From contig NC_047019.1 of assembly GCF_902652985.1 (NCBI RefSeq), forward strand, positions 12,648,001 to 12,712,000: 64,000 nt of DNA, in the 5' to 3' direction. Shown one piece after another: positions 2,658 to 64,000 of the stretch. The notes below the pieces were generated by a model, which searched no databases, was not told the origin of the DNA, and saw only the letters and a program-made list of their open reading frames with translations. The DNA comes from Pecten maximus. Taxonomy: Eukaryota. Made by a program: the position numbers and the translations under genes. Numbering within the stretch: the stretch's first letter is position 1; each line of letters starts with the position of its first letter.

Positions 2658-2953
2658 ATGTCATCTAAAGGTAAAAACAATATTACTACCATTTTCTGTA
2701 AACTGTGACAAATAAGAAATGTAAAAGAAGTGTATGGTAGAGTCAAACAACAGCAAGAAATGCACCGTCAAGATGGCGGGGGTATAAAGTTAGATTAGGT
2801 GGATGTGTGTTCACTCACTGTATGCTATGCTAAACATTATTTAATCTATAAATAACGCTTTCTTAATATAGCAGCCTAGTGTGGGATGTGAAAAGTATGT
2901 AAATGTATCGTGAATGTGCCAACATATATAGCTACCCTTAGCTTGTGAGGTTA

Positions 2954-2990
<37 letters not shown>

Positions 2991-5900
2991 GTTTTTTTTT
3001 TTTTTTTGGTGGGGGGGGGGGGGGGGGGGGGGGGGGGATTAAAAAGCCGATTAATGGTTTGCCAATGAGTCATATATACCTTTTTTTTTAGAATGTTTAC
3101 CAGTATTGATTAGCATATATATTTATAATGTTAATAAACTTCCATTTACCGTAGTTATCGTGGCGTGTCGATGACTACACTATTACCTTGATCAGATAAA
3201 TAACACGTGAAATGTATGCATATTCACTGAGGCCTGAAGTCTAGGAAATCATTATCATATCGGCATTATTACTTATTTGAATAATTACAGTAATATGTTG
3301 AAACAGACATATTCCTAGTCTTTTTTGTATCCCAAAGGATTGATTGAGCGCCTTGCAAATGGCGGACAAGTCCTCATTGCGGAAGGTTATCTGATAGAAT
3401 TGGAAAGAAGAGGTTATCTGCAGTCGGGAGGATTTATACCGGAAGTAGTTTTAGAACATCCGGAGATTGTCCGAGGACTACATCGAGAGTTTGTACATGC
3501 TGGCACCGATGTGGTAGAAGCATTTACAGTAAATATATACCTTATATACCGACTGCTCTGTGATACAATGTGCAATGTTCAGTTATCATACACATTAATT
3601 TTAAGTCTTTTCTATTTACTGAAACATTGTATTCGTGATTTGTGTTGCCATGGCATAAAGTTTTGCTTACTTAGCAGAATTTTCACTGAACATAAATTTT
3701 TGATACATTTCTTTTAATGCATGTATTTAGAATACATTTTGACTACCATTTTATTATTTAACGGGTGTTTTATTGCATTGTACTTGGTAAATAATACATG
3801 GTATATATTGTATATATAAGAATAAAGTGAGATAATACATGAAAGATCAAAAGCGAATAGCTGAAACATGCAATGTGAGAAAGAGACCTGTTTGAGGTTA
3901 CATGTTGTTGGGGCCGCGGTGGTCGAGTCTCTAGGTTGCGAGTTCGAAAACTACAAGGGGCAGTTGCCAGGTACTGACCGTAGGCCGGTGTTTTTTCTCC
4001 GGGTACTCCGGCTTTCCTCCACCTCCAAAACCTGGCACGTCCTTAAATGACCCTGGCTGTTAATAGGACGTTAAACAAAAACAAACCAAACTATTGTTAG
4101 CGAGATAAACAGGGCTCCAATAACTGGCGTTTCACAAGTGATACTTAGAGGGGGGTAACTCAACCTGATATTTTTGATAATAAGAAATAAATAAACATCT
4201 TTCAGTACTACGGTCATAGGGAGAAACTGCGAACAATTGGACGTGAGGATGACTTAGAGAGACTCAATAGGACTGCTCTTAAAATGGCTAGAGAAGTGGC
4301 AGACGAGGCTGGAGCTTTGATGGCTGGCAATATTTGCAACTCCAACCTATATGACAAAGACAATCGTGACGGAGATGAGAAAATAAGGGCAATGTTCAAG
4401 GTAAAGTCATCAAAGGAAACTCACTGAATTAAAGCTCATTATTGGATTATAAACAAAGAGAGATATGCCTGCTTGTAACTGAAACTATAATACTAACTCG
4501 ATAACAAAAAAGAAACCATTGCAAAAGTGCTATCGACCTGGCGTTCCAGAAGGCAAAGTAAGGAAAATTTCTCTACTTAATTGAACATTTTCTATCAGCA
4601 TTCGACATACTTAAGTCAAAATTATATACTTATTATAACCGATACCATGTAGACAATGTGTAATTAGAAAACATCTTAGTTTTATATTTGTGTTTATTGA
4701 GTTCTTGAAAAATATATTGTAAACTTTGAGATATATAACAAACAATATACCAGGTAAATCTATATTCTGACTTTCATTTCTTCGTCGTAGCCAATGTGAT
4801 GTATAAGTATGCATTTTAACATTTGTTTCTTAAATCTGGTCAATAAAGATCAGCTTCCTCTCTTGCGAAAAAAGGCTGATGGGTAACCTCTAAATGAACG
4901 ATGCTAATGTTTAAGTCTTTGCAATATTATGTACGACATCAATTCAGGAGCAAGTGGAGTGGGCAGTGGAGGAAGGGGCCGACTACATCATAGCTGAGAC
5001 AATAAGTAACTACGGAGAGGCTAAACTAGCGCTAGAGGCAATCCAAAAATACGGAAAAGGTAAAGGTTCCGATAGCCATTACTATGACATGTTGTGTGCA
5101 TGATACTAATGTAATCCTCTTATGAATGATTTAGTGGTGCCAATTCATTAGGTGTTTTGTTCTTCGTAGTTCCATCAGTTGGATTTAACTCAAACTTGCC
5201 TTAAATGATCTTGAGATGGTTCTGTCCAGGTGTGGTTGTTTTCTACAGTCATAATACCTCATAGAAAGTATCCGGATACTTTTTATCCTGTATAAAACTA
5301 CCCGGAATTATTATACCCCTACCAAAACGTACCTCCCTTGCATAAAGGTACCTCCCCTACCAAAAATCTTTTATTTTTACCTATTATGACTTAGGATCAA
5401 CATAGGAAGCCTCCAAACAAAAGACATTTTCCAACTTCCGGCTGCTTTTGATGGTTCGGTAAGAAAGGAAAAAAATTGGCCTCGTGGTGGGGAATTGGTG
5501 GGGTGGGGTCAGAAACATTTCAAATGTGTCGTCTATTCATATCTTCACTATATTAGATTGATCATGTTAAAATAAAACATTTTTGTAGGGGTCACTTCTT
5601 AAGCAAAGGGGAACATTTTATGCAGGAATAAAACGTATCTAAATACCTGGGTAAGGGTACATTTTATGCATGATACCCGGTTAGTGAAAATTACACTGAA
5701 GATGATCGAGTATTGTTATTTTCAAACTGATCCATAATCCATTTTATAACGTTATTGCATAATCACTGTTTTCGTTAAGTACCCATGTTAAAATTCTTCT
5801 TTAGTTGTAACAATAAACACGTCGGTTTCTTATTTCCATTCTGGCTTGGCGAAGAGTGTATGCAATACTGGATTTGAAGAAGAGTATACACGCAGGCATT

Positions 5901-8852
5901 ATATTATTTTCTATTCGAAATCCTCCTATATGTATATATGATTTGTATTGTGATGTGTGTACTTGAATGTTAATAAAGATATTGTTTAAACTCAATCCTC
6001 TTAGTATGGAAGCAGGATTAGTACAATGTATATGGCGTTATATATGTGTAGCGGAACTGGACTGGGTCGATCATCGGCGACCAGGTAGCTCAGTGGTAGA
6101 GTGTCCGTCTAGAGTTCGGAGGGTCCCGGGTTCGAACCCTGATCTGGCTGCTACATTTTCTCCTCTCCTGTTACATAATTGGCGAGCTTGCCTACCCTTG
6201 TTTAAAGCATTGGGAGTATGCTTAGCAAGGTGATGCCCGAACTTGTGGTCTTCGGGGGCGAAGACTTGAAAAAAGGGAGGGAGGAATGTAGCGGAACTGG
6301 ACTGGGTCGATCATCGGCGACCAGGTATCTCAGTAGTAGAGTGTCCGTCTAGAGTTCGAACCCTGGTCTGGCTGCTACATGTTTCCTCTCCTGTTACATA
6401 TGAACTGCGACGTAGGGATGACCATATCAGAAACTGACACAGTCAAAGAAAAATCATGACCTGTTTTCATTTTTTTTTTCTAAAATATAATCAAAATGAA
6501 TTTCCTTAATTATTTTAAGGTATTTAGTACCAGAACATTAATTTTCGTTAAATCTCAATATACTAAAACCCTTTGATTCACGTTTAATGAATCTCACTTA
6601 GGATGTTAAGTCAAGGCTGTTCTGATTGGTCGATGCTGTGCTATTGTGTATTCAAAAGTGAAGATTCTATTTTATGAATTTCAATATTAATATAGTAAAA
6701 TGTAATAAGTTTTGCTATTAATATTGTTTCTGTTATATAAAGGTGTCCCAGCTGTGATAACTATGGCAATTTATGTACCGGATAAGACGATGGATGGACT
6801 ACCGATAGCCGAGGCATGTCGTAAACTGGAGGAGGAGGGAGCGGCCGTGGTGGGTCTAAACTGTGGGCGTGGCCCCAGGACAATGTTACCTACAATCAGA
6901 GATATAAGGAAAGTATGCAAGGTAAGGAAAGGGTACGTCAATACATCTCAGTCTTTCAGGCCAGAGTAAAATTTATCCTTGCATTGTACGATACTAATTC
7001 TGTATCATGTTCATCTTAAAACCATTAATCATAAATATTATAAAGGACAAACATTGGATTCATTTACCTTTTTGCAAGCTGAAGCATGCGTTTGTTATGT
7101 CGCATAAGTAAACATCCATGGTAATTACAGTTTTCCTGTGCACAAAAAGTGCACTTAATGTAGCTTACGTTTTCTTATTAATGCAAAAAACGCGTACGTT
7201 CACACGTTTGTGAATGAAAACATTTCAACTAATTAAGCCATTTTCATTTACTTATATTAAGCATATAATGCAATACAGAACATGTTTTATTACCAAGTTA
7301 TAACAAATCCATAGTTTAGCTTTGTCTAAGATGACATGTCCGACAAAAAAAAATCAGATAAACTTTAAAGTAGTTGCGGTGTCAAACCTGGCTTACAAGA
7401 ATTAGTCAGCAATTGTTTTAGCCTATATCTGTTGTTGTTCTAAGATGGAAATATTAGATTCAGTGTTGTTCAAAATTGCTTACAAAATACATACTTTAAG
7501 TAAATTGTACAGTCTGGTTAAATGTAAACGATTACAAATGTCATGTTTTGTATTGAAGTCAGTACTATGCAGAATAATTCACTCTCGCAGTTCAATCGAC
7601 CTGCTTTATAAACTTATTCATATATGATATTTAAAACAGTGAAATATTGGAAGTGAATAAAAAACACATTCAATAAATGAATATTATCTAAATATATTAA
7701 ATAATATCAAATGAATAATTACAATAAGTAAACATTAAATAAGACAAGATTATCATTACGACAGAAGTGCATACTGTTGCTTTGTTTAAGTACAAACTTC
7801 CCCTTATCCATATGTTATTCTTCAGGGACCAATAGCTGCTCTTCCTGTGACATTCCGGACGACAGATAAGTGTCGCACATGGCTCTCCCTTAAAGATCCG
7901 GATACTGGTAAGTTCGGACTCCCGTAAATAAAATCCAAAACTCAGGTTAGTTGAGACTAAATTCTGGTTAATATACTGGCTTTTGAAATCCTCAATTTAT
8001 TCTCATATTATATATAATTTAAAAGAACACATCTTAAAACAATCCTAAAAAACATTTAAGCGAAACGGTCTGGTTTATCATTATAAAAATAAGGTTCAAA
8101 TTATACGTAGTATAACCATTAAGATATTTTGCAAAATGTGCTAACAAGTAATCAACAATAAAAACATTTTACTCAAAATGCAAGCTTAAGATTAGTGTCC
8201 AAAATCAGTATGACCCTCCTGTCATTATCCAATATCTCCCTCATGTCTTGTAATCATTAGTGCTCTCCTATCATGTAATAATTATTATTACCCCATTCTG
8301 TTATCAATACCACTCTCCTATTCTGTATGCGATATGACCCTCCTATTCTGTAATCAATATAACCCTATATAATCCTTGTATTCATATTACCCTGACATCC
8401 TGTAACAAATAGCATCCTAAAATCCTGTTTTGGTCCTGTTGGAAACGCAATTGTTTTCACTAAGTAAGAGCCCATCATAATTTGCAAGAAAGGCAAAAAT
8501 CACATACAAGCCGAATACTCATTACATATCTGATAAGATAAATTAAGAATGCGTAATATGTTGTAATTTTCTTATTGTAGGAAATGACGTGTATCCGGCA
8601 AACGTATCATGTGTTATGTGTAGTCGGGATGACATCAGACAATTTGCAGAGGAAGCGAAGGCGATTGGTGTAAATTACATCGGGCTTTGCTGCGGAAATG
8701 CACCATTCTTCTTCCGGGAGGTAGCGGAAGTGTATGGTCGGAAACCTGATGCGTGCAAATATGCACCAGATGTATCTGCTAATTCGGCTGTAGGCAAACA
8801 AACAGATCATTCGCAAAAAATGAAAGATATATCGAGAGTTGACAATGTTTAA
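2658..8852 (+). CDS. BHMT: Betaine-homocysteine S-methyltransferase-like, copy 1 (intact, 347 aa)
   Basis: Exons 2658-2670, 3338-3528, 4206-4400, 4948-5059, 6743-6921, 7826-7907, 8581-8852. All introns are GT-AG with compatible phases, total 1044 nt. Motifs [26 protein letters not shown], Zn ligands GLNC and GLCCG. Confidence 0.92.
2956..3037. repeat. Compound (GA)n / poly-T / poly-G microsatellite
   Basis: Directly visible in intron 1 of copy 1. Confidence 0.95.
3910..4093 (+). mobile_element. tRNA-derived SINE with V-domain-like core
   Basis: Head ggggccgcggtgg...gagttcgaaa, core ttctccgggtactccggctttcctccacc and an A/C-rich tail. It is flanked by TTGTT (3905-3909 and 4094-4098). The empty site is present in intron 2 of copies 3 and 6 (about 24230 and 53930). 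Confidence 0.8.
6047..6398 (+). mobile_element. Complete TRIM (miniature non-autonomous LTR retrotransposon) with tRNA-like sequence inside both LTRs (Helenus/Cassandra-like)
   Basis: LTR1 6047-6175 and LTR2 6287-6398 both run TG...CA. PBS TGGCGAGC starts at 6180. PPT gaaaaaagggagggaggaa at 6268-6286. TSD TATG at 6043-6046 and 6399-6402. tRNA-like segment 6079-6150 has an A box (TAGCTCAGTGG) and B box (GGTTCGAACCC). Confidence 0.9.
8205..8410. repeat. Degenerate ~25-bp minisatellite
   Basis: Recurring tcaatat-accctcctattctgtaa-like units in intron 6 of copy 1. Confidence 0.55.
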
Positions 8853-10495: not shown

Positions 10496-13400
10496 ATGCC
10501 ATCGAAAGGTATGTATTTATATTTGTTTACCACATCTATGTGTTTTCTGATAACATAACATAAACGGTTCGAAATACTTCGCCAGGAACGCTTGACGTAA
10601 ACAGAAGAGGATAAAAGTTTCCGCTGACCCAAACACCGTGCCAGAGCGCATTACCATATGAAAAAGTGAAATTCTCCGGCACTATTTGGTGCTTGGTGCA
10701 GACAAAATAAATCGGGCGTGGCATAGAACCTACCTTAGAAATATGGATAAATGTAATATTTATTTAACCTCAAAACACCCATTTAGTCCCATATCGATTT
10801 TTGTCCGTCCGTACCTATTCTCGTTTTACACTGGCCAAAATTTTACACATGACTCGACGCCATATTGCAAACTTAGTAGGACGCCGTAGTAGCACTATGT
10901 GTCGAAATGGAAAGATACAAGATCTATTTCTATATAGTTTACAATACCGATTATACTATGTGCACAAATGTACTCTTGCATTAGCTATCTCAGGTATTTG
11001 AAAATGATAAGCCTAGTTTTCTTGAATGAAACTATGTGAGAAGAAAACAAAATAAATGGTCTTTTCGAGTCATTGCGTTTCGATTCGGATGGTTTAGTAG
11101 CCCTTTCACTAAAAAAAATGCGGGTTAACATACCCGCATCATCTGAATCGGAACGCAATGACCCGAAAAGACCATTTATTTTGTATTCTTCTCATATGGT
11201 ATTAAATTTGAACAGGGGAAAATGTGAATATAGTAATGTATAATAATATATATTAGCGAAAAAGAAACTAAAGTCTATTTTCGATAGTTATCATTTTACA
11301 TGATTCTTGATGATGTGTTCATGGTGTGGGTTTCTCGATTATTTCATCATTACTGAATACCATTTGATGATTTTTACTCTCATATCACAGACGATATTTG
11401 CATTTATACGGTTAAAATAAGAGTACCCTACGTTGTTTCCTAATCCAAATCAGTAGCATGCGTGACCACCCCGATATCAGTCGCTGCTCTTACTCTCCTT
11501 AACATTGACCACATCAAGGTGTTTATTGCCCTTTGAGGGATACTATTCCACTCCTGTATAAGGGCCTGCTTGAGTTTAGCGACTTTATATGGGACGCTTC
11601 ATAACCCTTCTGTCTAAGTCGTCCCTCAAATGCTTGATTGGGGACGTATCTGGACTGTCTGGTGGTGGCAAATTAAGAACCGGAACCGTGTTTTGAGCCA
11701 TAAAGTCCCGACAAACCTTAGCAACATAGGGCCTTGCGTTGTCCTGTTCCAACGTAATGTTACATTGATGGATACGAGGAGGAAGTGTGGTCTCAATACC
11801 TGATCGACTTCACTCCATCGCGGCATTTTGCTGTAGAAATGTACATGTATTGTAACTGATCTGTACTGTTCCAATGTTCGATTTGAAATGATGTATAAGC
11901 AAATATGATGCAAGAGTACCACTGGTGAACGCTTTCTTAAAAAGTCTGCTGAAAGCATGCAGCATCGACCGGGCCAAGATCAACTGAATTTTTACTACAG
12001 AACATTTCAAAGTAAACGGAGGTAGCGCTGTGTGAAATTCAGTTGAATAATCACAGTATCAGGTGTATTTGTCTTATCTATGTGTAAGAAGGTCCATTAA
12101 AAATACGTACTATAAATCTTAATCTATTCACAACTTATATATATACAAGGGTCATTATTGACAAGTGATCTCCTTTATGTTAAGGATTTTATAGAAACTA
12201 ATGTAGTATATGTCTATTTTATGACATCATGATTAGTATATATACACATGCCAAGCTGGGCGGAGAAGTGCACAGATACATGTGTATGCAGCATTTACAA
12301 ATAAAGTATACGGAATGTAAATATGTTGATGGTCTCAAACAAGGGACTTTAACAACCTGAAAAAATAGCCACTTGACAATACACGTGTGTGCTGTAAGTG
12401 CATGTGTATTATATATATAACTTAGCAACACAAATGACGAAGGAAGACAACTTTTTGACTCGTGCCCTGACCGGGCCTCGAACTCACGATCTACGGCACC
12501 CAATCCCCTAGCCAGAAATATCCGCAGCTTATGCCGCTGCGCCACATCGGCGTTCTAACAATATGTACATCATATATATGTTCCATCCTTCAATTAAGGT
12601 GAGTTAGGGGGGAAAAGTTTGCTAATTAAAAGGGAATGTGAGAGAAATCTTGTCTTTCTATACAAATGTAAATATTAGAAATTGTCCGGAAAATAAAAAA
12701 GATAATGATGAATCTTAAATGATGTAATTATAAAGATAGGGAGCCACCCTGTCATGGAAGTGATCATGGTATTGAACCTCCTGTTGATATACAATAGTAA
12801 GGTTCCATTCCCTATTCAACGCCAAAATATACTGAGTAACATCTTTTGGAGCGTTCGGCCTATGTCGTCTCCTTCTGTCCAACTCGTCCTATAAATGTTC
12901 TGTCGGTAGTTGGTCAACCTGAAATTTAACGTCGATACTAAACGTCAATTGATGAAATTTTCACAACAACGTTATTACATTCTATAACATCCTTTTTGTT
13001 TTCCACAAACCTGGCGTTTTTTTTTTATTACTACACGGTACATTAAAGGGACGCTTTACTCCAAAGTATAGCCCTTTGATTTGTTTATGACACGAAGAGG
13101 GAAAATAAGACAAACTCCTAGGGATGTCAAGTGATGTTCTTGGAAATTCAATTTCGCATGCAAATTTACAACAACTGATGTAGAACACCTTCTTTGCGGA
13201 CTAAATAAACTGTTGTAGAATTACAATGATTAATCTCGCTATTACTATATTCTTCGGCAAATAACGTTAGAGTTAACTCTGAATGACAAGTAAATTGAAT
13301 CAAATACCGGCCATTTTTCGATGACTACAGTGATGAAGAGGCCCTCCTAAAGAACCCGACCGATTTAATTTGCATATACGAAGACATGTTCCGATAAAAG

Positions 13401-16400
13401 AAGACATCCCCATTCCGACACCCTAATGCAAATAACACGGAATTAAAGAAAATATAAAGAATACACTATGTTTAAATATTGATCTTATTCCACAAATATG
13501 CGAGGTGTGTGGTACAATCTAATGAACTTTGGATCACTTTAAATGCGCAAACAGAAATAAAGTATAAAAAAAAAAAAAAAAAAAACAGTCTAAAATAAGA
13601 TTACTGTCGTATTACTCCGATACAGCAATCCGAATTGACGGGTTTTAGTTTTAGTATGTAAACCTATGAACTTCATGATCAGCCAATCGTAACCGTAAAC
13701 CCAAAACCTTATGGGGAAACTTCGCAAGCTCATTCACGTTTACTCGTTACCGGTCAGTCAATGAATTTCTGTTCAAAATATATCATTATCTATTTGTACA
13801 ATACGAGAAATGTACCCCAATAAACAAATTTCTTATTCTTACTCTTATCTGAAAGGATTGTTGGAGCGTCTTGCAAATGGCGGACAAGTTCTCATTGCGG
13901 AAGGATATGTAATAGAACTGGAGAGAAGAGGTTATCTGCAGTCCGGAGGTTTTATACCGGAAGTAGTTTTAGAACATCCGGAGATTGTCCGAGGACTACA
14001 TCGAGAGTTTGTACATGCTGGCACCGATGTGGTAGAAGCATTTACAGTAAGTTTATATCTTTTTTACCAGCCGCTGTAGTGCATAAGTACCATGTTTGAA
14101 TTATCATCGGCAAGTTATACATGTAACCAACCGCTTTAGTGAATAAGTACCATATTTAAATTATCACCAGCATGCAGTGCATTGATATCAGCTGTTGTAG
14201 GGAACTGGTGTGTAGCTTAGGCTTTCTTGCAATCAAATAATTATATCTAGTTTTGTATGAACGAGCATTTATTTCATTAAAAGAGATGAACGAGCATTTA
14301 TTTCATTAAAGAGAAAATGAATTAATTATGTTTTTTATGTATTCTTATAGAATTAGTAATATCATTTGATGACCGTTTTCTGTTCCTATCACAGTCCTTA
14401 TGGTTGTGCATATTACATGTATGAGAATGAATGTATGAATTAATGGTTGGAAAATGAAAATAATTCAAAATGAGAAAAATATTTCTCTCAACCTGGACAG
14501 GGATATCCGCATTTTTACCGGAGTAAGATTTTCTTATCTCACCCTAGGGATAAGACAATATGCACGTGCTCTTTCAACATGTTCTTGTTCTCGATAAGGT
14601 GACGTCACTATTACTTACGACCCGGAACGTTTTAATGCTAAATATCAATATTATTCACAAAAGAAATCAAAATAAGTATTAATTATCAGAGTTAAGTGAG
14701 TGTTTGATATTCTTTTTGACAAGCTAATCGGAACTATATTTTGTATGAAATCAACATCGTAAGATGTAAAACCTCTGCTGCAGTCTTATCACAACTGTCA
14801 CCCGCCGTCCACGTGTTGTTGTTTACATACGTTTGAATTTGCTTCACACTTTGTTTTGAAAACAGGATAAGAAAAAAATAATCATTCACCCCTTTTTGGG
14901 ATGAGATGGGGGATCCCAACTCTCGAAGGTAGATTGTTAAGATCCAAAACACTCGGCAAGCCTCGGGTTTGGGTATTCAACAATCCCCCTCATCGGGTTG
15001 AGATCTTCCTATCTTACCCGAAAAGGGATGAACGATTCCATTACTCCTTTCAAAGATTAGTGAGTTGAATATATGGCTCCAAACCCTGGCATTTATCATA
15101 TTCACACCATGATATATGTAAGGTATATTTCAGTACTACGGTCATAGGGAGAAACTGCGAACAATCGGACGTGAGGACGACTTAGAGAGGCTAAATAGAA
15201 CAGCTCTTAAGATCGCGCGAGAAGTGGCAGACGAGACTGGAACTTTGATGGCTGGCGGACTTTGTAACACTAACATATATGACAAAGATGATGTTACTAC
15301 ACATGACCAAGTCAAGGAGATGTTTAAGGTGAAGTAATTATGGATTACAAATAAGGCCATCGATGCAAATTACCTTAAAACATATCAATAATGAAAAAAA
15401 AAAATGCATAAACATGTTGTATGATATATTTTTTACCCTGAAGATGACGCAATGTATGAATCAATACCGTAGTTACTCATAATATGAATTCAAGCCAGAA
15501 ACATTGCCTTTAATGGAGAATCTATATGTACATGACCTGCAGGAAAATGTGTCATGCATGCATGCGCAAACTGAAGAATGGTGGACAGGCGATCAATGCC
15601 ACGCATCAGAGACCCAACGTTCATCAGACAGACTGGTTGCGGCAGCGAAGGTAATGAAAAGGATATCGGAAAATCAGGACATCATCTACGACTAACAGAG
15701 TCAACACGAGTCTGTTGGATGAAAATCAAAGATAGACTAAATGTGAAAAGACATCACGATTTGGCTGTGAAAGGTCTCAGCATTTGAAAAATAATGCCAT
15801 GCTTTCTTTTCATCTGGGGGAAGAGATAACTCATTGCACGCAGGGCCGGTTTACCATCTATTATTAGATGTATATTACTTTCTTCGGAACTTATGAATTG
15901 TTCACGGAACTGAACAGGTTTGACGGCAATAAAATCAATATACAACAATAGGGAGATTATATAATTTGATTTGGTAGTTCTATATCTATAAACAAAAATG
16001 ATTGTGTTCTTACAATCATCTAGGTTTAATATGTACAAGAATAATTCTGTGTTACCCTTTTTTTTTCTTGAATAAGACACACTTTAATAAGTTCAATCTC
16101 CAGATGTTAAGTTTAAGATGTGTATTATTCACATATCAAACGCTCATTACATTTTTATTACATTTTCATTTCGTATGACCACAGGAACAGGTAGAGTGGG
16201 CGGTGGAGGAGGGGGTGGACTACATCATAGCGGAGACAATGAGCTACTACGGGGAGGCTAAACTAGCGCTGGAGGCAATAAAACAGTATGGGAAAGGTAG
16301 ACGTAGCAATACCCATCATTGTGTTTGAGAGTCCATTTCTTATTTATTGAATGATAGAATTTTATTACTATAGGGATGTTTTAGCTGTAAAATAAATCAT

Positions 16401-16599: not shown

Positions 16600-16637
<38 letters not shown>

Positions 16638-26570: not shown

Positions 26571-26625
26571 GTAAGTCAGTCCTTAAACAGGTACGACTAG
26601 GCATGGGTAAATCTAGGATGGACAC

Positions 26626-29650: not shown

Positions 29651-29703
29651 CTGCAGGTATACACTTTTAACACGTGTATCATTAGGAGTAGTGTTATCGG
29701 TCC

Positions 29704-51198: not shown

Positions 51199-54100
51199 AT
51201 GTCATCAAAAGGTATGTACATGTTTTGACATTTTATTACTTTAATTTTATTCACGATATAATACGGCATAGTGTATTATTTTAGAGACATAAAAACCGTT
51301 CAAAGTACTCAATCAGGACTGCTTGATGTTAACAGAAGATAATAGTTTGCCGAACTTTCTGTCGACTTGTACATACTTGTGGGATATATCTATTTTATAA
51401 AATTATGGTTCAAATATATATGCATTAATCACGCTTTGATGGGAAGTGTAGATATATTCACCCTTTAAAGAGAAGGTTTACGTAATGTATATCTTATCAA
51501 TTATCTCAAATAAGGTACTGTTACGACACAGGGATAATAGCCACCTTAAAAGCACATACATTTTATTTTGAAAACGCCTATTTTCACAGCTGAAAAGAAG
51601 TACAGTATATCGTTTTGCCTGCATTAAAATCTGACTCCAAAAACAAAACATTAAAAAGATAAATAAATGACTAAAGCAAAAATAAATAAATAAAAAGAAT
51701 GCAAGACATGTAAATATCCTTTTACACATATGTTGCATTGTTGCATCATGCTATTCAGCAATGCTTATGGGATCAAATGTATGGCCATTCCACAGGGATA
51801 TTGGGGAAATGCAAACTAAAGTTACTTAAAACTACCAAGACTAACTAAACAAATCAAAGAGGTTAAAAGAAAAGGTAATGCGACATTCGCGATTGTCGTG
51901 CGCAAGCGACGAAGAGTGTCAGCTTGTGTTAGCTATTGAAATGTCCTGTGTGTATGCAATGATAAGATAAATCAATCTGAACAAAAAAATCCTGTGACCT
52001 TCACTAGGTCAATGCGAGTTGTTGAAGGTCAAAAACCTGCGTTTCACGTGACGAAATGGTGTATATATGTAATACCGGTGTGAGTTTCTGTTTAACATGA
52101 TAAGAAATACTCATAAAAATCTATCTCCTGAGAAAATTAGTTCAAAGCAAACGTCAGATCTACATGTACGTTTGAGTACAGCTTGTAATAGTTTTCCTCC
52201 TGTGAGTGTTGACACATATTAGATGTAGCCAGAAGATTTGTTGGTGGTGTCACCAGAAAAAACACAGAGCAAAGCAATGAGCTATATGGGGACGGAGGGT
52301 ATGTGATATCATGATCAAAAGAAAAACCACAATAATATCATGTGGGTTTGTATTCCCAGGGTGAGGTAATGTTTTTATTATTTCATAATATCTGTTTGTC
52401 ATAAATCATCACTACAAGAAAAATTATATAACTTTATTTATCACAAAAGCGCTAGACCATACCCCCAAAATAAATTCTTACTTGAAGGTAACGTTTCTTA
52501 ACTACGATTCTCCCTGTAGCCACTAAAGATTGACAGAAAATTGCAGCGTTTTTCATCCTTGTTTTGAAAAAAAATTGTTTCCAAAAAGTCTAGATTTCGG
52601 GAAAATTAACAGGAAAAATTATAGTTATATTTTCCAACAAATCAACTGATGGCGAAAAGATCAATCACAGCAATTTTCATGAAAATCGGTTCATTAATTT
52701 CTGATTATGTCATATCTCATTAAGTTAATTTGTGAATAGCGGTTTCGTCTCAGAATACAATAATTCAATTAGGTAATATCCAGAAAATATAACAAAAATA
52801 ATAATAATAAAACAGATTAACAAAAAAAAATTGAATTCTAAAAATATAATTATGGAGTTAAGGCACCCACTCATCCATAATTCGGACACCCGTTTTGAAT
52901 ATTATTGATTGGTTACCTCACTTTCACAAACTTAGCCCTTCACATCACTGATGAGTCCAATACAATGTGAAATTTGAAAAAAATAACACAACATATTCGA
53001 ATATCAAATCGCTCTTTTATCACTCCGAGACATCTAGCGAAAAGGGAATGTTTGGGATGTATACTTATGGACTTACTTATGTACTTCATTATAAGCCATT
53101 CAAAACCGTAACCCCAACATTTTGGGCTTGACGCTGACACCGACATGGAAGCTTGTGGAAACATCAAGAGATTATGTACGGTTACTCGTTGCAATTAATT
53201 TAATGAGCGTGTGTTTGAATATATAATTATCTATTACATATAAAGAGAAATGTATCTCCATTGAATATATCTCTTGATCTCTTTTTTAATTAATAAGGAT
53301 TGATTGAGCGTCTAGAAAATGGCGGACAAGTCCTCATTGCGGAAGGATATCTAATGGAATTGGAGAGAAGAGGTTATCTGCAGTCTGGGGGATTTATACC
53401 GGAAGTGGTTTTAGAACATCCGGAGGTAGTCCGAGAACTACATCGAGAGTTTGTACATGCTGGCACCGATGTGGTAGAAGCATTCACAGTAAATATATAC
53501 CTTATTTACCAGTCGCTGTAGTGAATTAAAATCTTGCTTAAATTATTACCAGCAATCAGTGCATTATATACCAGCTGTTGTATGGAATATATTTGTAGCT
53601 TAAGTTATTATCCACGACCAAATCAGTATACATGTATATAGTGGAATTAATTTAGTTCTATATGAATAAGGATTTCTATCGATGAAGATATTTAATCATT
53701 GTTTGCTACCTTAGCATTTAGGTTTCATTTGTGAAGCAGCATTTTGACAAAACAATTATTTTTAAGTTTATAGAATAAGCTATGGTATTTCATATCGGAC
53801 CGGCGTTTAATATTCCCCTTGCAGTTTTATTGTTTTACATATTGCATGTATGAGAATGAATTACTGAAAGTAAAGCGAGTACAGAAGTGAGAAGCGAGTG
53901 AGAAGGAGACTTCCTGTCTGAGGCTACATTTTGTTAGTGAGATAAATCAAGAGATCCCAAAATAGGCATTTCACAAGTAATACTGCGGGAATAAAGCAAC
54001 TGAACCCTATCTTATAGATATGAGAAATTAATGTAAATCTTGCTGTATCTAAGTTGTATTTCAGTATTATGGTCATAGAGAGAAATTGCGAACAATCGGA

Positions 54101-57100
54101 CGCGAGGGCGACCCAGAGAGACTCAATAGAACAGCTCTTAAGATCGCGCGGGAAGTGGCAGACGAGACCGGAATTTTAATGGCTGGCGGACTTTGCAACA
54201 CCAACATATATGACAAAGATGATGTTACTACACATGACCAAGTCAAGGCTATGTTTAAGGTGAAGTAATCACGGATAACAAATAAGATGCATTGACTGAA
54301 CATTAATCGGATTTAATTTAAACTTACAGCTTGTTTTCGAAAGAAAAATCATCTGTTCGATATGTTAAATAAAAAAAATTGTATGAATTTTGGAAATAAG
54401 ACACAATTTATTCGATTTTATCGGATCTCCAGATTTAAAGTATAAAATATCAACTATATGTTTTTCACATGTTGAACGCAACATTTTTGTTTCGTACGAC
54501 CACAGGAGCAGGTAGAGTGGGCAGTGGAGGAGGGGACGGACTACATCATAGCGGAGACAATAAGCTACTACGGGGAGGCTAAACTAGCACTAGAGGCAAT
54601 ACAGACATACGGAAAAGGTAGAAGACCTAATAGTCATTATTGTGAGAGTTCTTGTCGGATGAATGATGATATCTACTAGTTATAGAGTTTGTCGGGTTTT
54701 TTTTGTTTTTGTTTTTTTTGTTTTTTTTGTTTTTTGTTTTTTTTTCACAATCAGAGAAAGAAGCCAAACAAGCAAACTCTTTCTAACGTAAAAATCAACT
54801 GAAATAGCTAAAATGTGAACAATACATTTGCAGGGATACCGATTAAAACAAAAGTTGATAAATATTCGATTTGATTCCTATTGATATCATTGAATGCTGT
54901 TTTCAATGTTTCGTTTCATTGAAATTGATGAAAAAAAGTATTCAAAAAGTAAAAAGTAATTCAATTCCGCAAGCTTGCTGTTCTCATATCAATACCATTA
55001 TGTGTATCATAATATTTCAATAGATCTTTAAAATTTATATTCGATACATATAATTCCTTCGGATTGTTTATGACATAAGGGAGAACATTTTGTAAGCTTT
55101 CAAGGACAGATAATTTGACATATCTATATCTATATCATTGGTGACGTCACAAATTTGTTGCGTCATGCAGCAAAAATTAGGCCCTAACCAACAAAGCTCT
55201 GCTAGCTGTTTGCATGTGTGAACATAACATTATGTATGTTAGAGCAGTTATTTATGATTACATAAAGTGTCCCAGCAGTGATAACTATAACATGCTATGT
55301 ACCGGACAAGACGCTTGAGGGACTACCGATAGCCTATGCATGTCGTAAATTGGAGGAGGATGGAGCGGCCGTGGTGGGTCTAAATTGTGGGCGTGGTCCA
55401 AGGACAATGTTACCTACAATCAGAAAAATAAGGAAGTTTGTAAGGTAAGGGGCATACTAAGCTTTATACATCTCTGTATAGAGAAGTCAGACGGAGAAAC
55501 ACAACAACATGGCAAACATCTGCCACCGTGCATTTGCATTGATACTACAGTATTTGTCATAAATATAAGTTCATTCTGAATAGATACATTTCATATATAT
55601 TTGTCACGCTTAAAGAAAATAAATAACATGAACAGTCAAAAAACAGAGTAATGTAATTCTAAGATTTAGATGTGAAATTGATATTGTGTCAAATTAAAAA
55701 TATTTTTACTTTGTATGCTAGATGTTACATGGCAGACTGGCTGTGTGGATACAGAACAAGATATTTATGCTTTCTGGAGAGAAATATCCCTTGCCTAGAA
55801 AGTTCCTTCGTTGTTGTTCAGTGAAAAATTAAAGCAGTCCTGAATTGTAACTTTGTAAAGTTAATAATGCACTTGCACCCTCACCTTAGCAACAGCAAAC
55901 ATGTATGTAACTACATTGTTAATAAGTATATTCAAGATTAGTATAGTTACTAATGCTTCTTCCGGAAGGTTCATATTATGTAGGGCAGGTTTGTAAAGAT
56001 TGTAACAAAAGTACAAAGAGAAACTTTTCCGAAGAAGAGGTGTGGATGATTGCTGAATTGAACAAGTTCTGTTGCATAATGATTAATCTTACAGGGACTA
56101 ATAGCCGCCATTCCCGTGGCATTCAGGACAACGGATAGGTGTCCCACGTGGATCATTTTGAAAGATCCGGACACAGGTAAGTCATTCCTTAAACAGGAAC
56201 GACTAGGCATGGGTAAATCCAGAATGGACACGGGGATAACCAAACCCGAAACTAGTGAGTCTAAACATAGGGTTAGTTCACAGCAGACTTGGGGATATCC
56301 AAACCCGAAACTGATGAGTCTAAACATAGGGTTAGTTCACAGCAGACTTGTGGATAGCCAGACCAGAAACTGGTGAGTCTAAACATAGGGTTAGTTCACA
56401 GCAGACTTGGGGATATCCAGACCTGAAACTAGTGAGTCTAGCCATAGGGGATATTTCCAGGTATCCCTAGACATAGGTACTTTCAGAGCAGTCTTAGAGA
56501 AATGCGAACCAGAAACGGGTGCGTCTGGACTCAGGTAAATCCAGAATAAAGTCGAGGAAATCTCGATCTGGGCTGAGTTTTACTAAGCATCTTAAGTAAC
56601 GGAGTTTGGTAGGACAGAGATTTAACGTAACTTAAATTTACGATACGAATCGTAACTTAAGATGCTGAGTTAAACTCAGTCCAGGAACTGGTGAGTCTAG
56701 ACATGTTGACGTAAGTTCAAAGCAGACTCAGGTAGGTCCAGACCAGATACTATTTCTCTTCGTGCCCTTCCTAGTCTCAGCTATATTTCGACCTCAGGTT
56801 TTATTGCCATCCTCCTTCTCCATCTGAGGTCGTCCGCTGAGTGTTGCTCGCCGTCCGTACAATTTCGAACCTAAGTTCTACCATTTGTAATCAGCTCTTT
56901 CTTGCCTGCACTATTCCCGAGATGGTCTTCACTAAGTGATGGTATTTTCTGGGTCGATCAGAAATCCAAAATAGTCAACATGACCAAGATAATTAGAGTA
57001 TTACACTATTGTCCTCAGTGCAATTATACTGTTACTGAGTATATAGCACTGAGGTCTTTTAAGTCAGGTCCTTAAGTTTCTTGTTTATTTTGTTTATATA

Positions 57101-57503
57101 TGCCAGCGTATAGTATATTTCTACTACTGAACGATAAGCATTATGTGCTTTATTCCATTAATTGCTTTGTTCCGCTGCAACTCTCTGACATGTCCAAGTA
57201 AATATGTTAACAAGTCCTGTATTTTTTGTAGGAAATGATGCATATCCGACGAATTTGTCATGTGTCACGTGTAGCCGAGATGACATCAGGCAATTTGCAG
57301 AGGAAGCGAAGGCGATTGGTGTTAATTACGTCGGACTTTGCTGCGGAAATGCTCCATTCTTCTTCCGGGAGTTAGCGGAAGTGTATGGCCGAAAACCTGC
57401 TGCATGCAGATATTCCCCTGATGTATCTGCAAATGCAATTGTAGGCACATCAACAAAGCATACACAAATAATAAAAGAGTTTACGAGTGTTGACAGCATT
57501 TAA
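51199..57503 (+). pseudogene. BHMT-like copy 6, all seven exons present but exon 5 frameshifted
   Basis: Exons 51199-51211, 53298-53488, 54065-54259, 54506-54617, 55268-55444 (177 nt instead of 179; two 1-nt deletions giving an early TGA), 56095-56176, 57232-57503. Confidence 0.75.
56231..56445. repeat. 59-bp minisatellite (~3.5 units), paralogous to 26626-26992
   Basis: Same unit, fewer copies. Confidence 0.85.
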
Positions 57504-59056: not shown

Positions 59057-62000
59057 ATGCCATCAAAAGGTAAAGATTCATGATATCAACTATGAAACAC
59101 TAGTCTGTGTATATCTTTCTTACCGAAATTGTTTTTCAATCATATGATTCAACGCTGCTAACCTTGAACTTATTATTCCCAACAATAGCCCGAGTTTCCT
59201 CTGGCCCTGAAATAGTGTCAGGGCTAGAAACGCGGGCTATCCCCACATATGTCGTTTAACTTTACATGAGATATTCACTTGTATAACATAGAGCTATTTA
59301 CCACACGTGTTTTCTTTAAATGGTTATTCACCACACGTGTGTCGTCCTTTAACCCTGAACTTATTATTCACCACACATGTGACGTCACTTAACCTTGAAC
59401 ATATTATCCACACCTTGTGTCGTTTGACCTTGAGCTAATTGTTCACCACACGTGTGTCATTTAAACATAAACTTATAATCAACCACGTGTGTCGTTTGAC
59501 TTTAAAATAACTGTTTATAACGCTTGTGTTGTCTTTAAACTTATACTAATTGTTCACCACAGGTGTCTCATTTAATCTTGAACTAATTATTCACCGCACG
59601 CGTGACGTTCACTATCACTGGCATGCTTAATCTAGATCATTTTCAAATTCCTCTAGAATTGTTCATGATTTGTAATAATTCACGTCCTTTAATGTCTGTT
59701 ATAAGCATTCAGTCAGTGCACTGTCATACATAGTAATGTACAGTATACTTTTTGTTTCTAAAAGTTACATTTAATATTCCGTAAATTCTTGGTTGCGACA
59801 GGCGAAAATATGAAATAACTAAAATAATATAACTTAGTGATGACTTCACAGACTAATTTGGCTACAAAATGTTATGCATTAGCAATATATCACAGTTAAT
59901 GGTGCCTGATTACGGGGCATATATATTAACCATCTCAGGATGCTATATAGAGTTTCCTGTATCATGATGGTTAGTACTGCTTTATACACAAATGTTTGAT
60001 GTCGTATGATCAGACTGTTACCGGATTCTAGTATGCCCAGTGAATAACTCTTGTTTTTTATCGTTTACTGGAGTGTAAACTGCATTTTTACGGATACTTT
60101 TAATGACACCATGTTGAAATATCTGTGAAATACAGTTTACTCACCAATAAACGATAATGATAATAAAAATCAAGAATAATTCATTAGATTTACATTCTAA
60201 TCTGAGTTTTTATCTAGTGTTATCAAAAAAAAAAAATGAAATCGGCATTCTTTTTTCGGTGTTATACGAAAAGGCGTAACACCCGGACACTTATTTGAAT
60301 CGCTAAACAGCCGATTCCTTTTTGACGGGAAATGCTGTCAACTTCAGGAATGAACAAACTAAAGTTCCGCAGTAACATCGTTTTTATTTTTTCATCGATA
60401 CAATGTATATTTCAGTTAAATAAACCATATTCCATTCATATTGTATTGGGGTATTGGGGTATTGTTGTAAAAACGAAAACAGTCGATGCGCATTCACACT
60501 AATTGCGCATGTGTGCACAGCTTCGGCTATGAGCAATGTATTCCTAAGCGTCAAATTTGATGTTTACACACTTGTAAACGATATCTCCGTTAGTTAGGTG
60601 ATATAACGAATGCAATTTTGATGACAGATGACTAGAATGTTGCCCGATAAAACGGCACGATCATTTATCTGTCATCCAATTTATATATATATACCGCCGA
60701 CTGTATACTACAGTGCCAAAAATATATGTCCCAAAGGAAAATGGCGGCGCGCTAGTTTCTCTGAGCGTAGAGACATCGGAACACTTTCCCAATATTGATC
60801 TGTTTATTCCGAGTATTTTTCTTATATCTTCAACTCTCTCTTGCATACCCTAATATTTCAATTTCTACTCAAGTTGGACTCGATGAAACTACCAAACTTA
60901 ATCTGTTTCATTTGCTCATGAATTTGACCAGATTAACACTGATCAGTGCGTATGAATACATGGTTAAAATCCTTCCGCGGAACTATTTCACTTTTTCTAC
61001 ATTGTTGTTATAAACATGGATTAATTATTAAAATTATTCTTGTATTCTTGTATTTGATGAAAGACCAGATATGCTGGATACTTTTTTTTGACAAAATAAT
61101 GCTGATTTTAATCCTAAAATTGCGGACTATTTTACTCGACCGACAAGACATGCACAATCCGGAACTCCTCGGACTTTTCCGCATTTAGACTTGCACAAGC
61201 TACAAGATATTAATATCTAGACCGACTTTTTTATTCGAAAAAAAAAAAACAATTGAAATATAAGGATTGAATCTAGATTTGGTCGATTTCATGGGGTCAT
61301 GAATTGAGTTGCTCTTGAGACAAATTCAACATGAACTGCTTCGCAGTTCATTAAATTTGTCTCAAGAGCAACTCAATTCATGACCCCATGAAGTCGACCA
61401 AATCAAGATTCAATCCTTAATTACACTCTGTGCAATGACGTCACTATACCGGAAATGAAAGTGTCGTCTGTCACTAATGTAAACGTTTTGAAGAGGTCTG
61501 TAGAAATGGCACAAAAGACCGGGAGCTGTCACCCAGCACAACGAAACAAAACTTTTCTTTGACACAAGGTGACCAGAAAGTCGGAGAAATAAGTAAGATC
61601 CTCGGCATAAACAGATCAATAGTAGGGGAAATGATCCAGGAAAATAACAGCTATGGTGAACATGAAAATCGGCAAAGAAGTGAGGGGAAGAAAAGTTTGA
61701 CAGATCGCAATCAAAGGAAACTGCAGGTTGGTGAATAATGATAGACGTTCCCTTTTGGACGATTTCACAAAACAATTTATATTAATTAACATGCTCCTCC
61801 AAAAGTATCCAGGAAAACAGGAGAAATTACGTGAATGGAAACGTATTGAAATCGGGGAGGTGAAAAGAAGATAGCGCCTTGCCGGGTGTTTGGCTCGTCG
61901 CATCAACGATGTGAACGACTACTGGAAAAGCTTTACTTTTTTTAATGAAATTGTAGTGGTTTGGATACCCGAAGGCGAAATTAAGATGTGGAGAAAAATC

Positions 62001-64000
62001 CCGAAAGATAGAAACCAGAATGTCTCGGTTATATGAGTGGAACTGGTCAACAGATGATCTTAAAAGGAATATAATACCTATGAAAGGGTGGGAACACATG
62101 TCGATGGAAACATGAGAAGTACATTAAGGTCCTTGAAAATAATTTAAGGAATGTGATTGTGAAATATGTCAGTGACAAACCTTACCCGTTCCAGGAAGAT
62201 AATGCTCCCTGTCACAAGTCGCGATTGTGTGTGACCCGGAAGACTGATAACGGTCTACCTGTGTTACAATGGCCAGCTCAGAGTCTTGACTTAAGTCAAA
62301 TCGAAAATAATTGGTTTCTCATGAAGAACGCTTTAATACTGAGGCAAGTGATCATCCGAAAGGGCAGTATATCAAAGCACTAGGGACCTCCGATATTTCC
62401 GACAGAAATGATTTAGTTCTTTGTGTTATAGACAACTTATCTCTTTAATTGTTTTACAAAAGTGTGATTTGTCAAACTTTTTTTTTTTTGTAGTTTTTTT
62501 ATATTTTTTTTTTAATTTGGAATAAAAACTGTTATTGCGCAGTGATAAATTTGATGAGGCGGAATTTAAAATAATTTCAGAAGAAAATCTCCTCTGAAAT
62601 TGTAAACGAAAGTCACCCGGTCAGTAGGTGACAAATTCAGATTCCATGTCTAATCGCTCAGATCAGTGTCGCTTGGAGGTCAACTGTGAACTACCGCGGA
62701 GTGAACTGGTTTTATCAACACTCTCATTCACACTTTCACGCTTTCTTAAATATTCAAAACCTAATTTACATATACCGCACCAACAACACTAAATACGGAT
62801 AAATAAAAACGACCAACAGACCTTGCGGTGCACAATACGGATAGGACACAACACTAAACTATAAATAATAAAAAGGTAGTTTTCACATCACGATAAACAA
62901 ATAACAAGATACTTATAAACAATATATATATTCAAATTATATTGTAAATAGCTTAATACATTTACCAAATTAGGAAAGCTTATTTTATTGATACCGAATG
63001 TGCCTGGCGGCTATATTAGGCTATCTCTAGTTTCCCAGCTACAATCAAGTGTGGAAACATATCCGCAAATTAAACTTTTTAGAACCCCGGTCTTTGGCTC
63101 GTGTTAACAACACCATCCGTATCGAAGTGGATCTACATCTATCTATATTCTTACACTGACCGAATCACTACGAATTGTAGTATACGTCTCATATATATAC
63201 AATTGGGTTTACAATCAAATGCAACACAGAGAGTAGATATATTGCATATGAAGGGGTTTTAAACAAAATCTTTCGTTCGTTTCACTAACAGGTTTACTAG
63301 AACGCCTTAACAACAGTGAACATGTTCTTGTCGCGGAAGGATACATGCTGGAAACCGAACGAAGAGGTTACCTAAAGTTCGGCTCATTTGCACCCGAAGT
63401 GGTTTTAGATAATCCAGACATGGTTCGAAGCATGCATCGGGAGTTTGTTCACGCCGGTTCTGATGTAGTGGAAGCTTTCACGGTAATATAAGCTTAACTA
63501 ATAGTCCCTCGTTGTTGACAGAAAGCTTTTTTTTTTACAAACATAGTTTAATCACACACAAATACTTCCCAATGTTTTCATACAGTAATTAAACGACAAT
63601 ACTACACAGATTACGCTCATTTTCGTTCTCTCTAATCCTGTTGTATTTCATCGAAGCAACTATCTAAATGGTCTACATGAAAACTGCACAAGTTGCTACG
63701 TTGATAACTAAATTCAAAGCTTGTCAATACGTGCATCAAATCCATAAGATGGCGGTGACTCAGCCTTCTGTTTTGTTACCACATATCGCAGCGATGCAGA
63801 AAGCGAAATTAAACGTAAATCTGGAGTATCCAGGATGAAAATAATCATATACATATACTTATACAAAAACAAATATTTTCCTCGTGTGTTTGACGCACGT
63901 GTGACGTTGTTTGGTCACATAATTTTTGTGTTGTTTAGTATTACGGACACAGGGAGAGACTAAAGCTGATTGGACGAGAGGACAACCTCGAGAAACTCAA
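59057..64000 (+). CDS. BHMT: Divergent BHMT-like copy 7 (5' part; runs off the right edge)
   Basis: Putative exon 1 59057-59069 (MPSK-G|gtaaag). Exon 2 63292-63482 ([64 protein letters not shown], 191 nt). Exon 3 from 63939 ([20 protein letters not shown]). Confidence 0.85.
59160..59610. repeat. Degenerate ~40-bp tandem repeat containing CACGTG palindromes
   Basis: Units like ttaaccttgaacttattattcaccacacgtgtgtcgt in intron 1 of copy 7. Confidence 0.7.
61261..61419. repeat. Near-perfect long palindrome (~75-bp arms)
   Basis: taaggattgaatctagatttggtcga...gaactgc ttc gcagttc...tcgaccaaatcaagattcaatcctta. Confidence 0.9.
61500..62340 (+). mobile_element. Decayed Tc1-like transposase
   Basis: HTH-like [13 protein letters not shown] near 61585 and DD34E-region [11 protein letters not shown]...[20 protein letters not shown] at 62190-62315, with multiple frameshifts and stops. 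Confidence 0.85.

What the first reader, a model, noticed from the sequence alone, without database searches (positions are those of the whole stretch)
2658..64000. Expanded tandem array of bacterial-type BHMT-like methyltransferases with intron-rich genes
Seen: at least seven head-to-tail copies (three intact, three damaged, one divergent and incomplete in the window). The spliced protein has LIAEGYxx[44 protein letters not shown] and YSPDVS. From my knowledge of the family, these resemble BhmT-like proteins of marine alphaproteobacteria and Firmicutes (AEGxLFELERRGY...YNGHREK.R.IG) more than vertebrate BHMT (GDGGFVFALEKRGY, IAEYF). At 347 aa it also lacks the long vertebrate C-terminal tail. 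Inference: this is a lineage distinct from vertebrate BHMT (ancient transfer or hidden paralogy) that was amplified locally, possibly as an osmolyte methyl-scavenging system using glycine betaine, DMSP/thetins or S-methylmethionine.
Basis: partly seen in the sequence, partly recalled or inferred. Interest (0 to 1): 0.72.

Follow-up and report, generated by a model that had tools for sequence, protein, structure and literature searches.

The report
Scallop array of bacterial-type betaine methyltransferases
A scallop carries ten tandem copies, six of them intact, of a methionine-making enzyme gene from an old second animal family that groups with bacterial enzymes rather than with the vertebrate one; no vertebrate-type gene was found in its genome, so these copies likely do that job, probably with the osmolyte glycine betaine or a related compound as methyl donor.

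Summary
The array is real and extends past the window: 10 head-to-tail loci over about 108 kb (7 in the window), 6 intact, plus 6 more loci elsewhere. Copy 1 is spliced at all six introns in 4 of 4 runs laid. The proteins are 50-59% identical to bacterial proteins and 30-35% to canonical (vertebrate-type) BHMT; a tree uniting the two animal types is rejected (p-AU 0.002). The family is not scallop-specific: it occurs in chitons, snails, bivalves, a bryozoan, a sea urchin and amphioxus, and amphioxus shares two intron positions with the scallop genes, so it predates the protostome-deuterostome split. Canonical BHMT was not found in this genome with four queries; a chiton has both types. Zinc and homocysteine residues are kept, and bacterial relatives often sit beside betaine-uptake or demethylation genes (25 of 80), so betaine is the likely donor; untested. 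The array's mollusc subclade has lost an arm histidine that is constant in the bacterial members, a hint of changed specificity. Transfer from bacteria is possible, not shown. The scan earlier noted only bacterial members of this family. Verdict: known chemistry, apparently undescribed animal subfamily.

The parts
2658..8852 (+). Copy 1, intact, 347 aa. Exons 2658-2670, 3338-3528, 4206-4400, 4948-5059, 6743-6921, 7826-7907, 8581-8852
   Evidence: identical to P0001; all six introns bridged by contigs in 4 of 4 runs
10496..19257 (+). Copy 2, intact, 347 aa. Exons 10496-10508, 13856-14046, 15134-15328, 16185-16296, 17173-17351, 18736-18817, 18986-19257
   Evidence: matches P0121; two splice joints at depth 4-5 in 1 of 4 runs
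21558..26570 (+). Copy 3, exons 1-6 only; last exon (with two of the three zinc cysteines) missing
   Evidence: NCBI model P0003 reads through intron 6
35520..43792 (+). Copy 4, intact, 347 aa; the 142-N stretch (36172-36313) lies in its intron 1
   Evidence: identical to P0002
48402..48918 (+). Copy 5, fragment: exons 6-7, exon 7 acceptor lost
51199..57503 (+). Copy 6, seven exons, frame broken at the exon 5 acceptor and near the end of exon 5
   Evidence: none of three DNA runs restores the acceptor; one run lacks the second lesion
59057..64000 (+). Copy 7, divergent (72-73% to copies 1, 2, 4); exons 1-3 in the window, intact when completed to G000:C5:12714034
   Evidence: matches P0407
48350..56449 (+). 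Recent segmental duplicate of 18685-26843 (end of copy 2 plus copy 3), which made copies 5 and 6
   Evidence: 95.5% over 4.7 kb and 93.3% over 3.4 kb; dS copy 3 vs 6 = 0.047

Best explanation
[quoted passage not shown] Shown: array, splicing of copy 1, purifying selection, separate clade, presence across bilaterians, shared introns with amphioxus. Inferred from known BHMT chemistry: Cys211/294/295 bind zinc and activate the homocysteine thiol, Glu20 and Glu150 hold its amino group, Phe37 and Tyr70 line the onium site, products are methionine and dimethylglycine. Predicted: a homodimer whose short arm (317-329) caps the partner's active-site loop. Inferred role: B12-independent remethylation and disposal of betaine when salinity falls. 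The array grew by birth and death: three old lineages shared with other scallops plus recent duplicates, some already broken.
For: Array and gene models. Splicing. dN/dS 0.05-0.21 among intact copies. Identity of copy 1: 49.7-58.7% to 79 of 80 bacterial loci, 29.7-35.2% to 15 canonical rows. Trees: AEGY clade 100/100, animal AEGY 100/98, canonical 100/100; the two animal types as one clade rejected, p-AU 0.0023. Range: chiton, gastropods, bivalves, amphioxus, sea urchin and bryozoan. The tail of amphioxus P0257 is exon 7 read one frame over, starting exactly at the scallop exon 5/6 border: 44 of 63 positions fit, shuffled mean 13.5, max 25 of 10,000. Canonical queries hit only the 16 AEGY loci; two canonical motifs give 0 matches. 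Model pLDDT 95.6; best fold match human BHMT 1lt8, Z 43.1, rmsd 1.8 A over 306 residues, ahead of MetH (37.4) and MmuM (30.6). C211, C295 and E150 are invariant and C294 is kept in 124 of 125 AEGY rows counted. 25 of 80 bacterial loci have a DMG-dehydrogenase-like, sarcosine oxidase, GcvT-like or ProV-type gene within 3 kb. Homodimer score 0.88, best control 0.00, runs agree in at least 85% of contacts, pLDDT at least 91; the mark was met by 21 of 30 solved microbial homo-pairs and 0 of 23 single chains, by 7 of 16 animal pairs, and may come from likeness to solved BHMT. Oyster 'BHMT' qPCR primers (PMC11849188) translate to peptides found in AEGY proteins P0437 and P0454.
Against: No member of this subfamily has been assayed in what I read; PMC12478193 calls SAR11 BhmT 'not experimentally validated'. 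Human Tyr160 and Gln247 are not kept (Thr151, Leu236), Asp26 is Glu, and the betaine-linked 86-94 loop is four residues shorter. The array's clade lacks the arm histidine that all 37 bacterial-like rows of A2 and all 26 named bacterial rows keep. 55 of 80 bacterial loci show no confidently named betaine gene within the flank, and I ran no control for that count. No clear DMG dehydrogenase orthologue was identified in G000. Absence of canonical BHMT rests on one assembly. Only copy 1 has solid transcript support, and the runs were found with copy 1.
Confidence: 0.62

Rival explanations
1. Same enzyme class, but the array's subclade has moved to another methyl donor, such as dietary DMSP or another sulfonium or betaine, while the His-keeping paralogues on C7 do the betaine job.
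For: 37 of 38 rows of a starred gastropod-plus-bivalve clade lack His325; 4 of the 5 C7 paralogues, the chiton, sea urchin and named bacterial rows keep it. The arm that carries it packs on the partner's loop 27-37 in the predicted dimer. Positions 152-154, 178-181 and 246-250 vary among array copies. PMC12366255 (passages) states that mammalian BHMT homologues and Phaeobacter Bmt use DMSP.
Against: No assay. The human equivalent of His325 is unsettled: the profile alignment gives the KH motif near 328, the structural range would allow 338. Phe37 and Tyr70 are kept in most copies. An oyster gene studied as betaine-linked BHMT belongs, by its primer peptides, with His-less proteins.
Confidence: 0.25
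2. The enzymes use S-methylmethionine, like BHMT2 or MmuM.
For: Short length, ET instead of EY at 150-151 as in MmuM and MetH, shorter 86-94 loop; NCBI names a few mollusc members BHMT2-like.
Against: MmuM is the weakest of the three fold matches and scores about 70 bits against a cut-off of 215; G000 has a separate MmuM-type gene at C14:21.44 Mb; bacterial neighbours point to betaine.
Confidence: 0.07
3. On origin only: the animal subfamily was not transferred into early animals but is an older eukaryotic or pre-eukaryotic paralogue, kept patchily.
For: Bacterial AEGY proteins as one clade, sister to the animal ones, are not rejected (p-AU 0.576); unnamed transcript-like AEGY rows fall outside the animal clade and could be protists.
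Against: Best trees place the animal clade inside bacteria, next to a Kiloniellaceae protein, but only at 93/82; every named eukaryote hit is a bilaterian, though only the best 120 hits and 30 looked-up clusters carried names.
Confidence: 0.45
4. The array is an assembly artefact of unmerged haplotypes.
For: Copies 3 and 6 differ by dS 0.047 and lie on either side of an N stretch.
Against: At most the copy 3/6 block is in doubt.
Confidence: 0.03

Closest known systems
Canonical animal BHMT (human/rat, EC 2.1.1.5; PDB 1lt8, 4m3p, 1umy, 8d45)
   Same: Barrel fold (Z 43.1, rmsd 1.8 A), three zinc cysteines, Glu159, Tyr77, aromatic at Trp44, first part of the dimer arm.
   Different: 30-35% identity; AEGY for GDGG; Tyr160 and Gln247 not kept; HTKPW arm motif in 119 of 120 canonical and 0 of 109 AEGY rows; median 351 vs 398 aa; different introns in the part compared; separate clade.
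Bacterial BhmT-like proteins of Actinomycetota, Alphaproteobacteria, Chloroflexota (and, by recall and earlier AI notes only, SAR11 BhmT and Oceanobacillus BhmT)
   Same: 50-59% identity over the full length, same motifs and length, one clade at 100/100.
   Different: Six spliceosomal introns; array clade lacks His325; Asn for Ala after CCG. That SAR11_1173 belongs to this clade was not tested here.
Sinorhizobium/Roseobacter Bmt (MtgE; NCBIfam NF005718)
   Same: Pfam PF02574 domain; same annotation name.
   Different: Scores 82-100 bits against a cut-off of 338; PMC12478193 reads Bmt as a module of split methionine synthase.
Mammalian BHMT2 and MmuM/HMT
   Same: Short, tail-less homocysteine methyltransferases.
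   Different: BHMT2 is a mammal-only duplicate of canonical BHMT (PMC4516251, passages); MmuM is 18-21% identical and has its own gene in G000.

Membership tests
Homocysteine S-methyltransferase domain (PF02574) | Pfam score above the curated cut-off | tested here: met
   146 bits vs 22
Homocysteine S-methyltransferase domain (PF02574) | Three zinc cysteines (NC...CC) and homocysteine-binding Glu | tested here: met
   C211, C294, C295, E150 in all 13 G000 models aligned; roles recalled, numbering
Homocysteine S-methyltransferase domain (PF02574) | (beta/alpha)8 barrel like BHMT/MetH | tested here: met
   (predicted model)
Canonical animal BHMT | Nests with vertebrate BHMT orthologues | tested here: not met
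   p-AU 0.0023
Canonical animal BHMT | GDGG loop, Tyr160, Gln247 | tested here: not met
   AEGY, Thr151, Leu236; residue roles recalled
Canonical animal BHMT | Trp44 and Tyr77 at the betaine site | tested here: inconclusive
   Phe37 in most rows, Tyr70 in 77 of 88 animal rows: Tyr kept, Trp replaced by another aromatic
Canonical animal BHMT | Full oligomerisation domain, residues 319-406 (PMC4516251), giving a tetramer | tested here: not met
   Model aligns only to residue 345; HTKPW absent in 109 of 109; only a dimer was modelled
Canonical animal BHMT | Uses glycine betaine as methyl donor | not testable with these tools
   needs an assay; indirect support
Bacterial-type (AEGY) BhmT subfamily | One clade with bacterial AEGY proteins | tested here: met
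   100/100
Bacterial-type (AEGY) BhmT subfamily | AEGY..E.ERRG, YY.HR, ET motifs | tested here: met
Bacterial-type (AEGY) BhmT subfamily | Arm histidine (DMSKH), constant in the bacterial rows | tested here: not met
   Asn or Ser in all 7 array models; His in 4 of 5 C7 paralogues. The feature is my own, from these alignments
Bmt/MtgE (NF005718) | NCBIfam cut-off 338 bits | tested here: not met
   82-100 bits
MmuM/HMT (NF007020) | NCBIfam cut-off 215 bits | tested here: not met
   69-73 bits
Horizontally acquired gene | Animal clade nested within one bacterial group with strong support | tested here: inconclusive
   93/82; bacterial monophyly not rejected

The most novel reading that the evidence does not exclude
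Early bilaterians took a second BHMT from bacteria; in scallops it displaced the canonical enzyme, and a His-less gastropod/bivalve branch, amplified here into a ten-gene array, became a set of methyltransferases for dietary DMSP or other algal onium compounds, giving filter feeders a direct, B12-free route from algal osmolytes to methionine.
Probability: 0.12. Interest if true: 0.78.

Novelty: new variant of a known kind. Interest (0 to 1): 0.48.

Why it matters
Databases label these proteins 'BHMT1-like' or 'BHMT2-like', and shellfish studies treat them as the vertebrate enzyme. They are a separate, unassayed subfamily that shared an ancestor with bacterial proteins, was present before protostomes and deuterostomes split, and is the only BHMT type found in this scallop (16 loci). 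Salinity and betaine data on oyster 'BHMT' therefore concern this subfamily. An animal member is also an easy route to the first biochemistry of the clade to which the unvalidated marine bacterial BhmT probably belongs. The chemistry itself is of a known kind, and tandem expansion of metabolic genes is common in bivalves.

Tried and rejected
Scallop- or mollusc-specific transfer: rejected (amphioxus, sea urchin, bryozoan members; shared introns). Copy 6 lesions as mere long-read errors: not supported for the acceptor, since two DNA runs match the assembly there and the third has an extra A that still leaves the AG one base off; the second lesion is absent in that third run and uncovered in the other two. 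The extra base in the downstream locus was not checked with reads. RNA-like run X10 gave no cover of copies 5-7, and DNA run X5 had almost none over 50076-52067: no proof of silence or deletion. Contig depth was not used as copy number. Plasmid and phage collections: among the 40 of 185 and 10 of 20 records listed, none above 30% identity, so no named cultured member was obtained. Rfam on 20 of 80 bacterial loci: one cobalamin riboswitch, no SAM riboswitch. Search for a DMG dehydrogenase in G000 with one bacterial query: a four-gene DMGDH/PDPR-family cluster of unsettled subfamily and two unrelated hits. First test of the amphioxus tail by aligning shifted translations was weak; the codon-compatibility test replaced it. 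The 48-row careful tree did not finish; a 33-row one did. Trees used 120, 48, 33 and 30 chosen rows, not all hits; bacterial rows are the nearest to copy 1, so sampling is biased, and the outgroup rows are unnamed. Ten literature searches showed no paper describing two animal BHMT types or this array; subscription journals are mostly not held. PMC11136095 was not held; PMC12421898 has no BHMT passage. Figure S2 of PMC12478193 and of PMC5069961, which bear on the residues and tree of SAR11 BhmT, could not be read as text.
Full report
Observation. A six-frame scan and exon mapping confirm seven head-to-tail, + strand loci in the window. Copies 1, 2 and 4 give open 347-aa frames from seven exons. 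Copy 3 lacks the last exon. Copy 5 is only exons 6-7 and arose, with copy 6, from a recent duplication of the block holding the end of copy 2 and copy 3 (93-95% identity). Copy 6 has a broken exon 5; none of three DNA runs restores its acceptor. Copy 7 is intact once completed from the next stretch. My models of copies 1 and 4 equal proteins that NCBI names 'betaine--homocysteine S-methyltransferase 1-like [Pecten maximus]', so the window is scallop DNA and the genes are annotated.

Extent. The window is G000:C5:12648001-12712000. Two intact copies lie upstream (C5:12612592-12626306) and one locus with an extra base in exon 3 lies downstream (to C5:12720650), making ten loci in about 108 kb, six intact. 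Six more loci lie at C5:13.83 Mb and C7:0.3, 7.88 (two), 11.24 and 23.45 Mb. All ten loci modelled and the window copies share the same intron positions for exons 2-7. Contigs from 4 of 4 RNA-like runs (four studies) bridge all six introns of copy 1; copy 2 shows two joints at low depth in one run. The runs were found with copy 1, so this does not rank the copies. Among intact copies dN/dS is 0.05-0.21; copies 3 vs 6 give 0.49. It cannot collapse to one or two loci.

What family. Copy 1 is 49.7-58.7% identical to the proteins of 79 of 80 bacterial loci and 29.7-35.2% to 15 canonical BHMT rows. The 80 named bacteria are mostly Actinomycetota and Alphaproteobacteria; none is Bacillota. In a 33-row mixture-model tree the AEGY proteins form a clade (100/100), the animal ones a clade within or beside the bacteria (100/98), and canonical BHMT a separate clade (100/100) next to unnamed short GDGG proteins. 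Forcing both animal types together is rejected (p-AU 0.0023). Forcing the bacterial AEGY rows together is not (p-AU 0.576), so the direction of any transfer is open. No NCBIfam model reaches its cut-off.

How old. Named AEGY proteins come from a chiton, many gastropods and bivalves, amphioxus, a sea urchin and a bryozoan. The amphioxus protein P0257 is an isoform whose tail, from the scallop exon 5/6 border on, is exon 7 read one frame over: 44 of 63 positions fit in exact register, against a shuffled mean of 13.5 and a maximum of 25 in 10,000. That is what skipping the 82-nt exon 6 gives, so amphioxus shares introns 5 and 6 with the scallop. Canonical genes in nine metagenome fragments instead have an intron after HPEA, and three show a phase-0 acceptor directly before the first Gly. 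The intron-bearing AEGY gene thus predates the protostome-deuterostome split. The chiton Liolophura and amphioxus have both types.

Canonical BHMT in this genome. A canonical protein from a metagenome contig and the chiton's canonical protein hit only the 16 AEGY loci (37 and 44 matches, best exon 56% and 52%), and two canonical motif patterns found nothing. The other PF02574 genes found are methionine synthase (C3) and an MmuM-type gene (C14). This is one assembly; no bivalve or gastropod name appears among the best 120 canonical hits, which is only a hint.

How it likely works. The model (pLDDT 95.6) matches human BHMT best: Z 43.1, rmsd 1.8 A over 306 residues, ahead of MetH and MmuM. Using the numbering and recalled residue roles, the zinc cysteines (211, 294, 295), Glu150 (human 159) and Tyr70 (77) are kept, Trp44 is Phe37, Asp26 is Glu20 in a loop one residue shorter, and Tyr160 and Gln247 are not kept. 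The tail is about 50 residues shorter and lacks HTKPW in 109 of 109 rows; PMC4516251 (passages) assigns human 319-406 to oligomerisation and 86-94 to betaine recognition, a loop four residues shorter here. A homodimer is predicted (0.88, best control 0.00; agreement at least 85%, pLDDT at least 91; mark met by 21 of 30 microbial homo-pairs, 0 of 23 single chains, 7 of 16 animal pairs; possibly from likeness to solved BHMT), with residues 317-329 on the partner's loop 27-37. For the donor, 25 of 80 bacterial loci have DMG-dehydrogenase-like, sarcosine oxidase, GcvT-like or ProV-type genes within 3 kb, and 7 more have an unassigned flavoprotein; there is no control for this count. PMC3160333 and PMC5069961 (passages) place SAR11 bhmT in betaine demethylation by prediction, and PMC12478193 (passages) says it is not experimentally validated; that it belongs to this clade I did not test. 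The oyster BHMT primers of PMC11849188 (passages) translate to VLAFTYC and MIEWAV, found 213 nt apart in AEGY proteins P0437 and P0454; PMC6381741 (passages) cites raised BHMT transcription in Pacific oyster at low salinity. I put glycine betaine as donor at about 0.7 for the subfamily and 0.6 for the array copies.

A caveat that may be the interesting part. A histidine in the arm (DMSKH, position 325) is present in 37 of 37 bacterial-like rows of alignment A2 and 26 of 26 named bacterial rows, in the chiton and sea urchin rows and in 4 of 5 C7 paralogues, but is Asn or Ser in 37 of the 38 rows of the starred gastropod-plus-bivalve clade that holds the array. Its human equivalent is unsettled. 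PMC12366255 (passages) notes that related enzymes accept DMSP. A shift of donor in this clade is possible (0.25) and directly testable.

Comparison and verdict. It works like BHMT but fails membership of the canonical family on tree, motifs and tail, and fails the Bmt and MmuM cut-offs. It is a member of a bacterial-type subfamily. PMC4516251 and PMC4303824 (passages) treat animal BHMT as one lineage in the passages I saw; PMC7240134, PMC4239095 and PMC9321204 (passages) showed no split either. Ten searches found no description of two animal types. Earlier notes of this scan concern bacterial members only. New variant of a known kind; interest 0.48.

Noticed in passing
L006:7737-9106 and window 1-339 (just upstream of copy 1): Decayed open frames, one with a weak Pox_A32 packaging-ATPase hit (E 1.6e-4, under cut-off): looks like a Polinton/Maverick-type remnant between u2 and copy 1 (label recalled). 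Observed only.
   Followed up: partly
window 6079-6151, second copy about 6310-6400: tRNA-Ser-like element in intron 4 of copy 1, duplicated nearby; probably a tRNA-derived SINE.
   Followed up: partly
window about 3900-4090: High-copy repeat in intron 2 of copy 1, with very deep cover and many loose ends in all four RNA-like runs.
   Followed up: no
window 34752-34936 and 61261-61419: Two long inverted repeats; the second lies in a very high-copy region, MITE-like.
   Followed up: no
window 30409-31255 and 45939-47140; 26626-26992 and 56232-56449; 31921-32474; 36453-36953: Minisatellites of 27, 59, 147 and 40 bp; the 27- and 59-bp arrays were carried along in the gene duplications.
   Followed up: partly
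window 18986-19257 vs 43521-43792: Exon 7 of copies 2 and 4 is 98.8% identical while their introns are about 81%, and copy 1 matches copy 2 far better in exons 2 and 5 than in 3 and 6: signs of gene conversion.
   Followed up: partly
G000:C11:32.42-32.50 Mb (L240-L249): Four tandem genes of the dimethylglycine dehydrogenase / PDPR family, one inverted; PDPR-like by recall, subfamily not settled.
   Followed up: partly
G000:C7:11.24 Mb (L106-L108): One paralogue has a 13.5-kb intron 5 and a GC donor after exon 6.
   Followed up: no
L117, L121, L129, L136: Intron-free canonical-type BHMT genes (375 aa) on marine metagenome contigs of up to 8.6 kb, nested among animal canonical rows; could be prokaryotic or viral carriers.
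   Followed up: no
L042, L044, L049, L050, L057, L093: Recurrent alphaproteobacterial block: hydantoinase/caprolactamase-like gene, PhyH/ectoine-hydroxylase-like gene, AEGY methyltransferase, DMG-dehydrogenase-like gene; may degrade a cyclic betaine.
   Followed up: no
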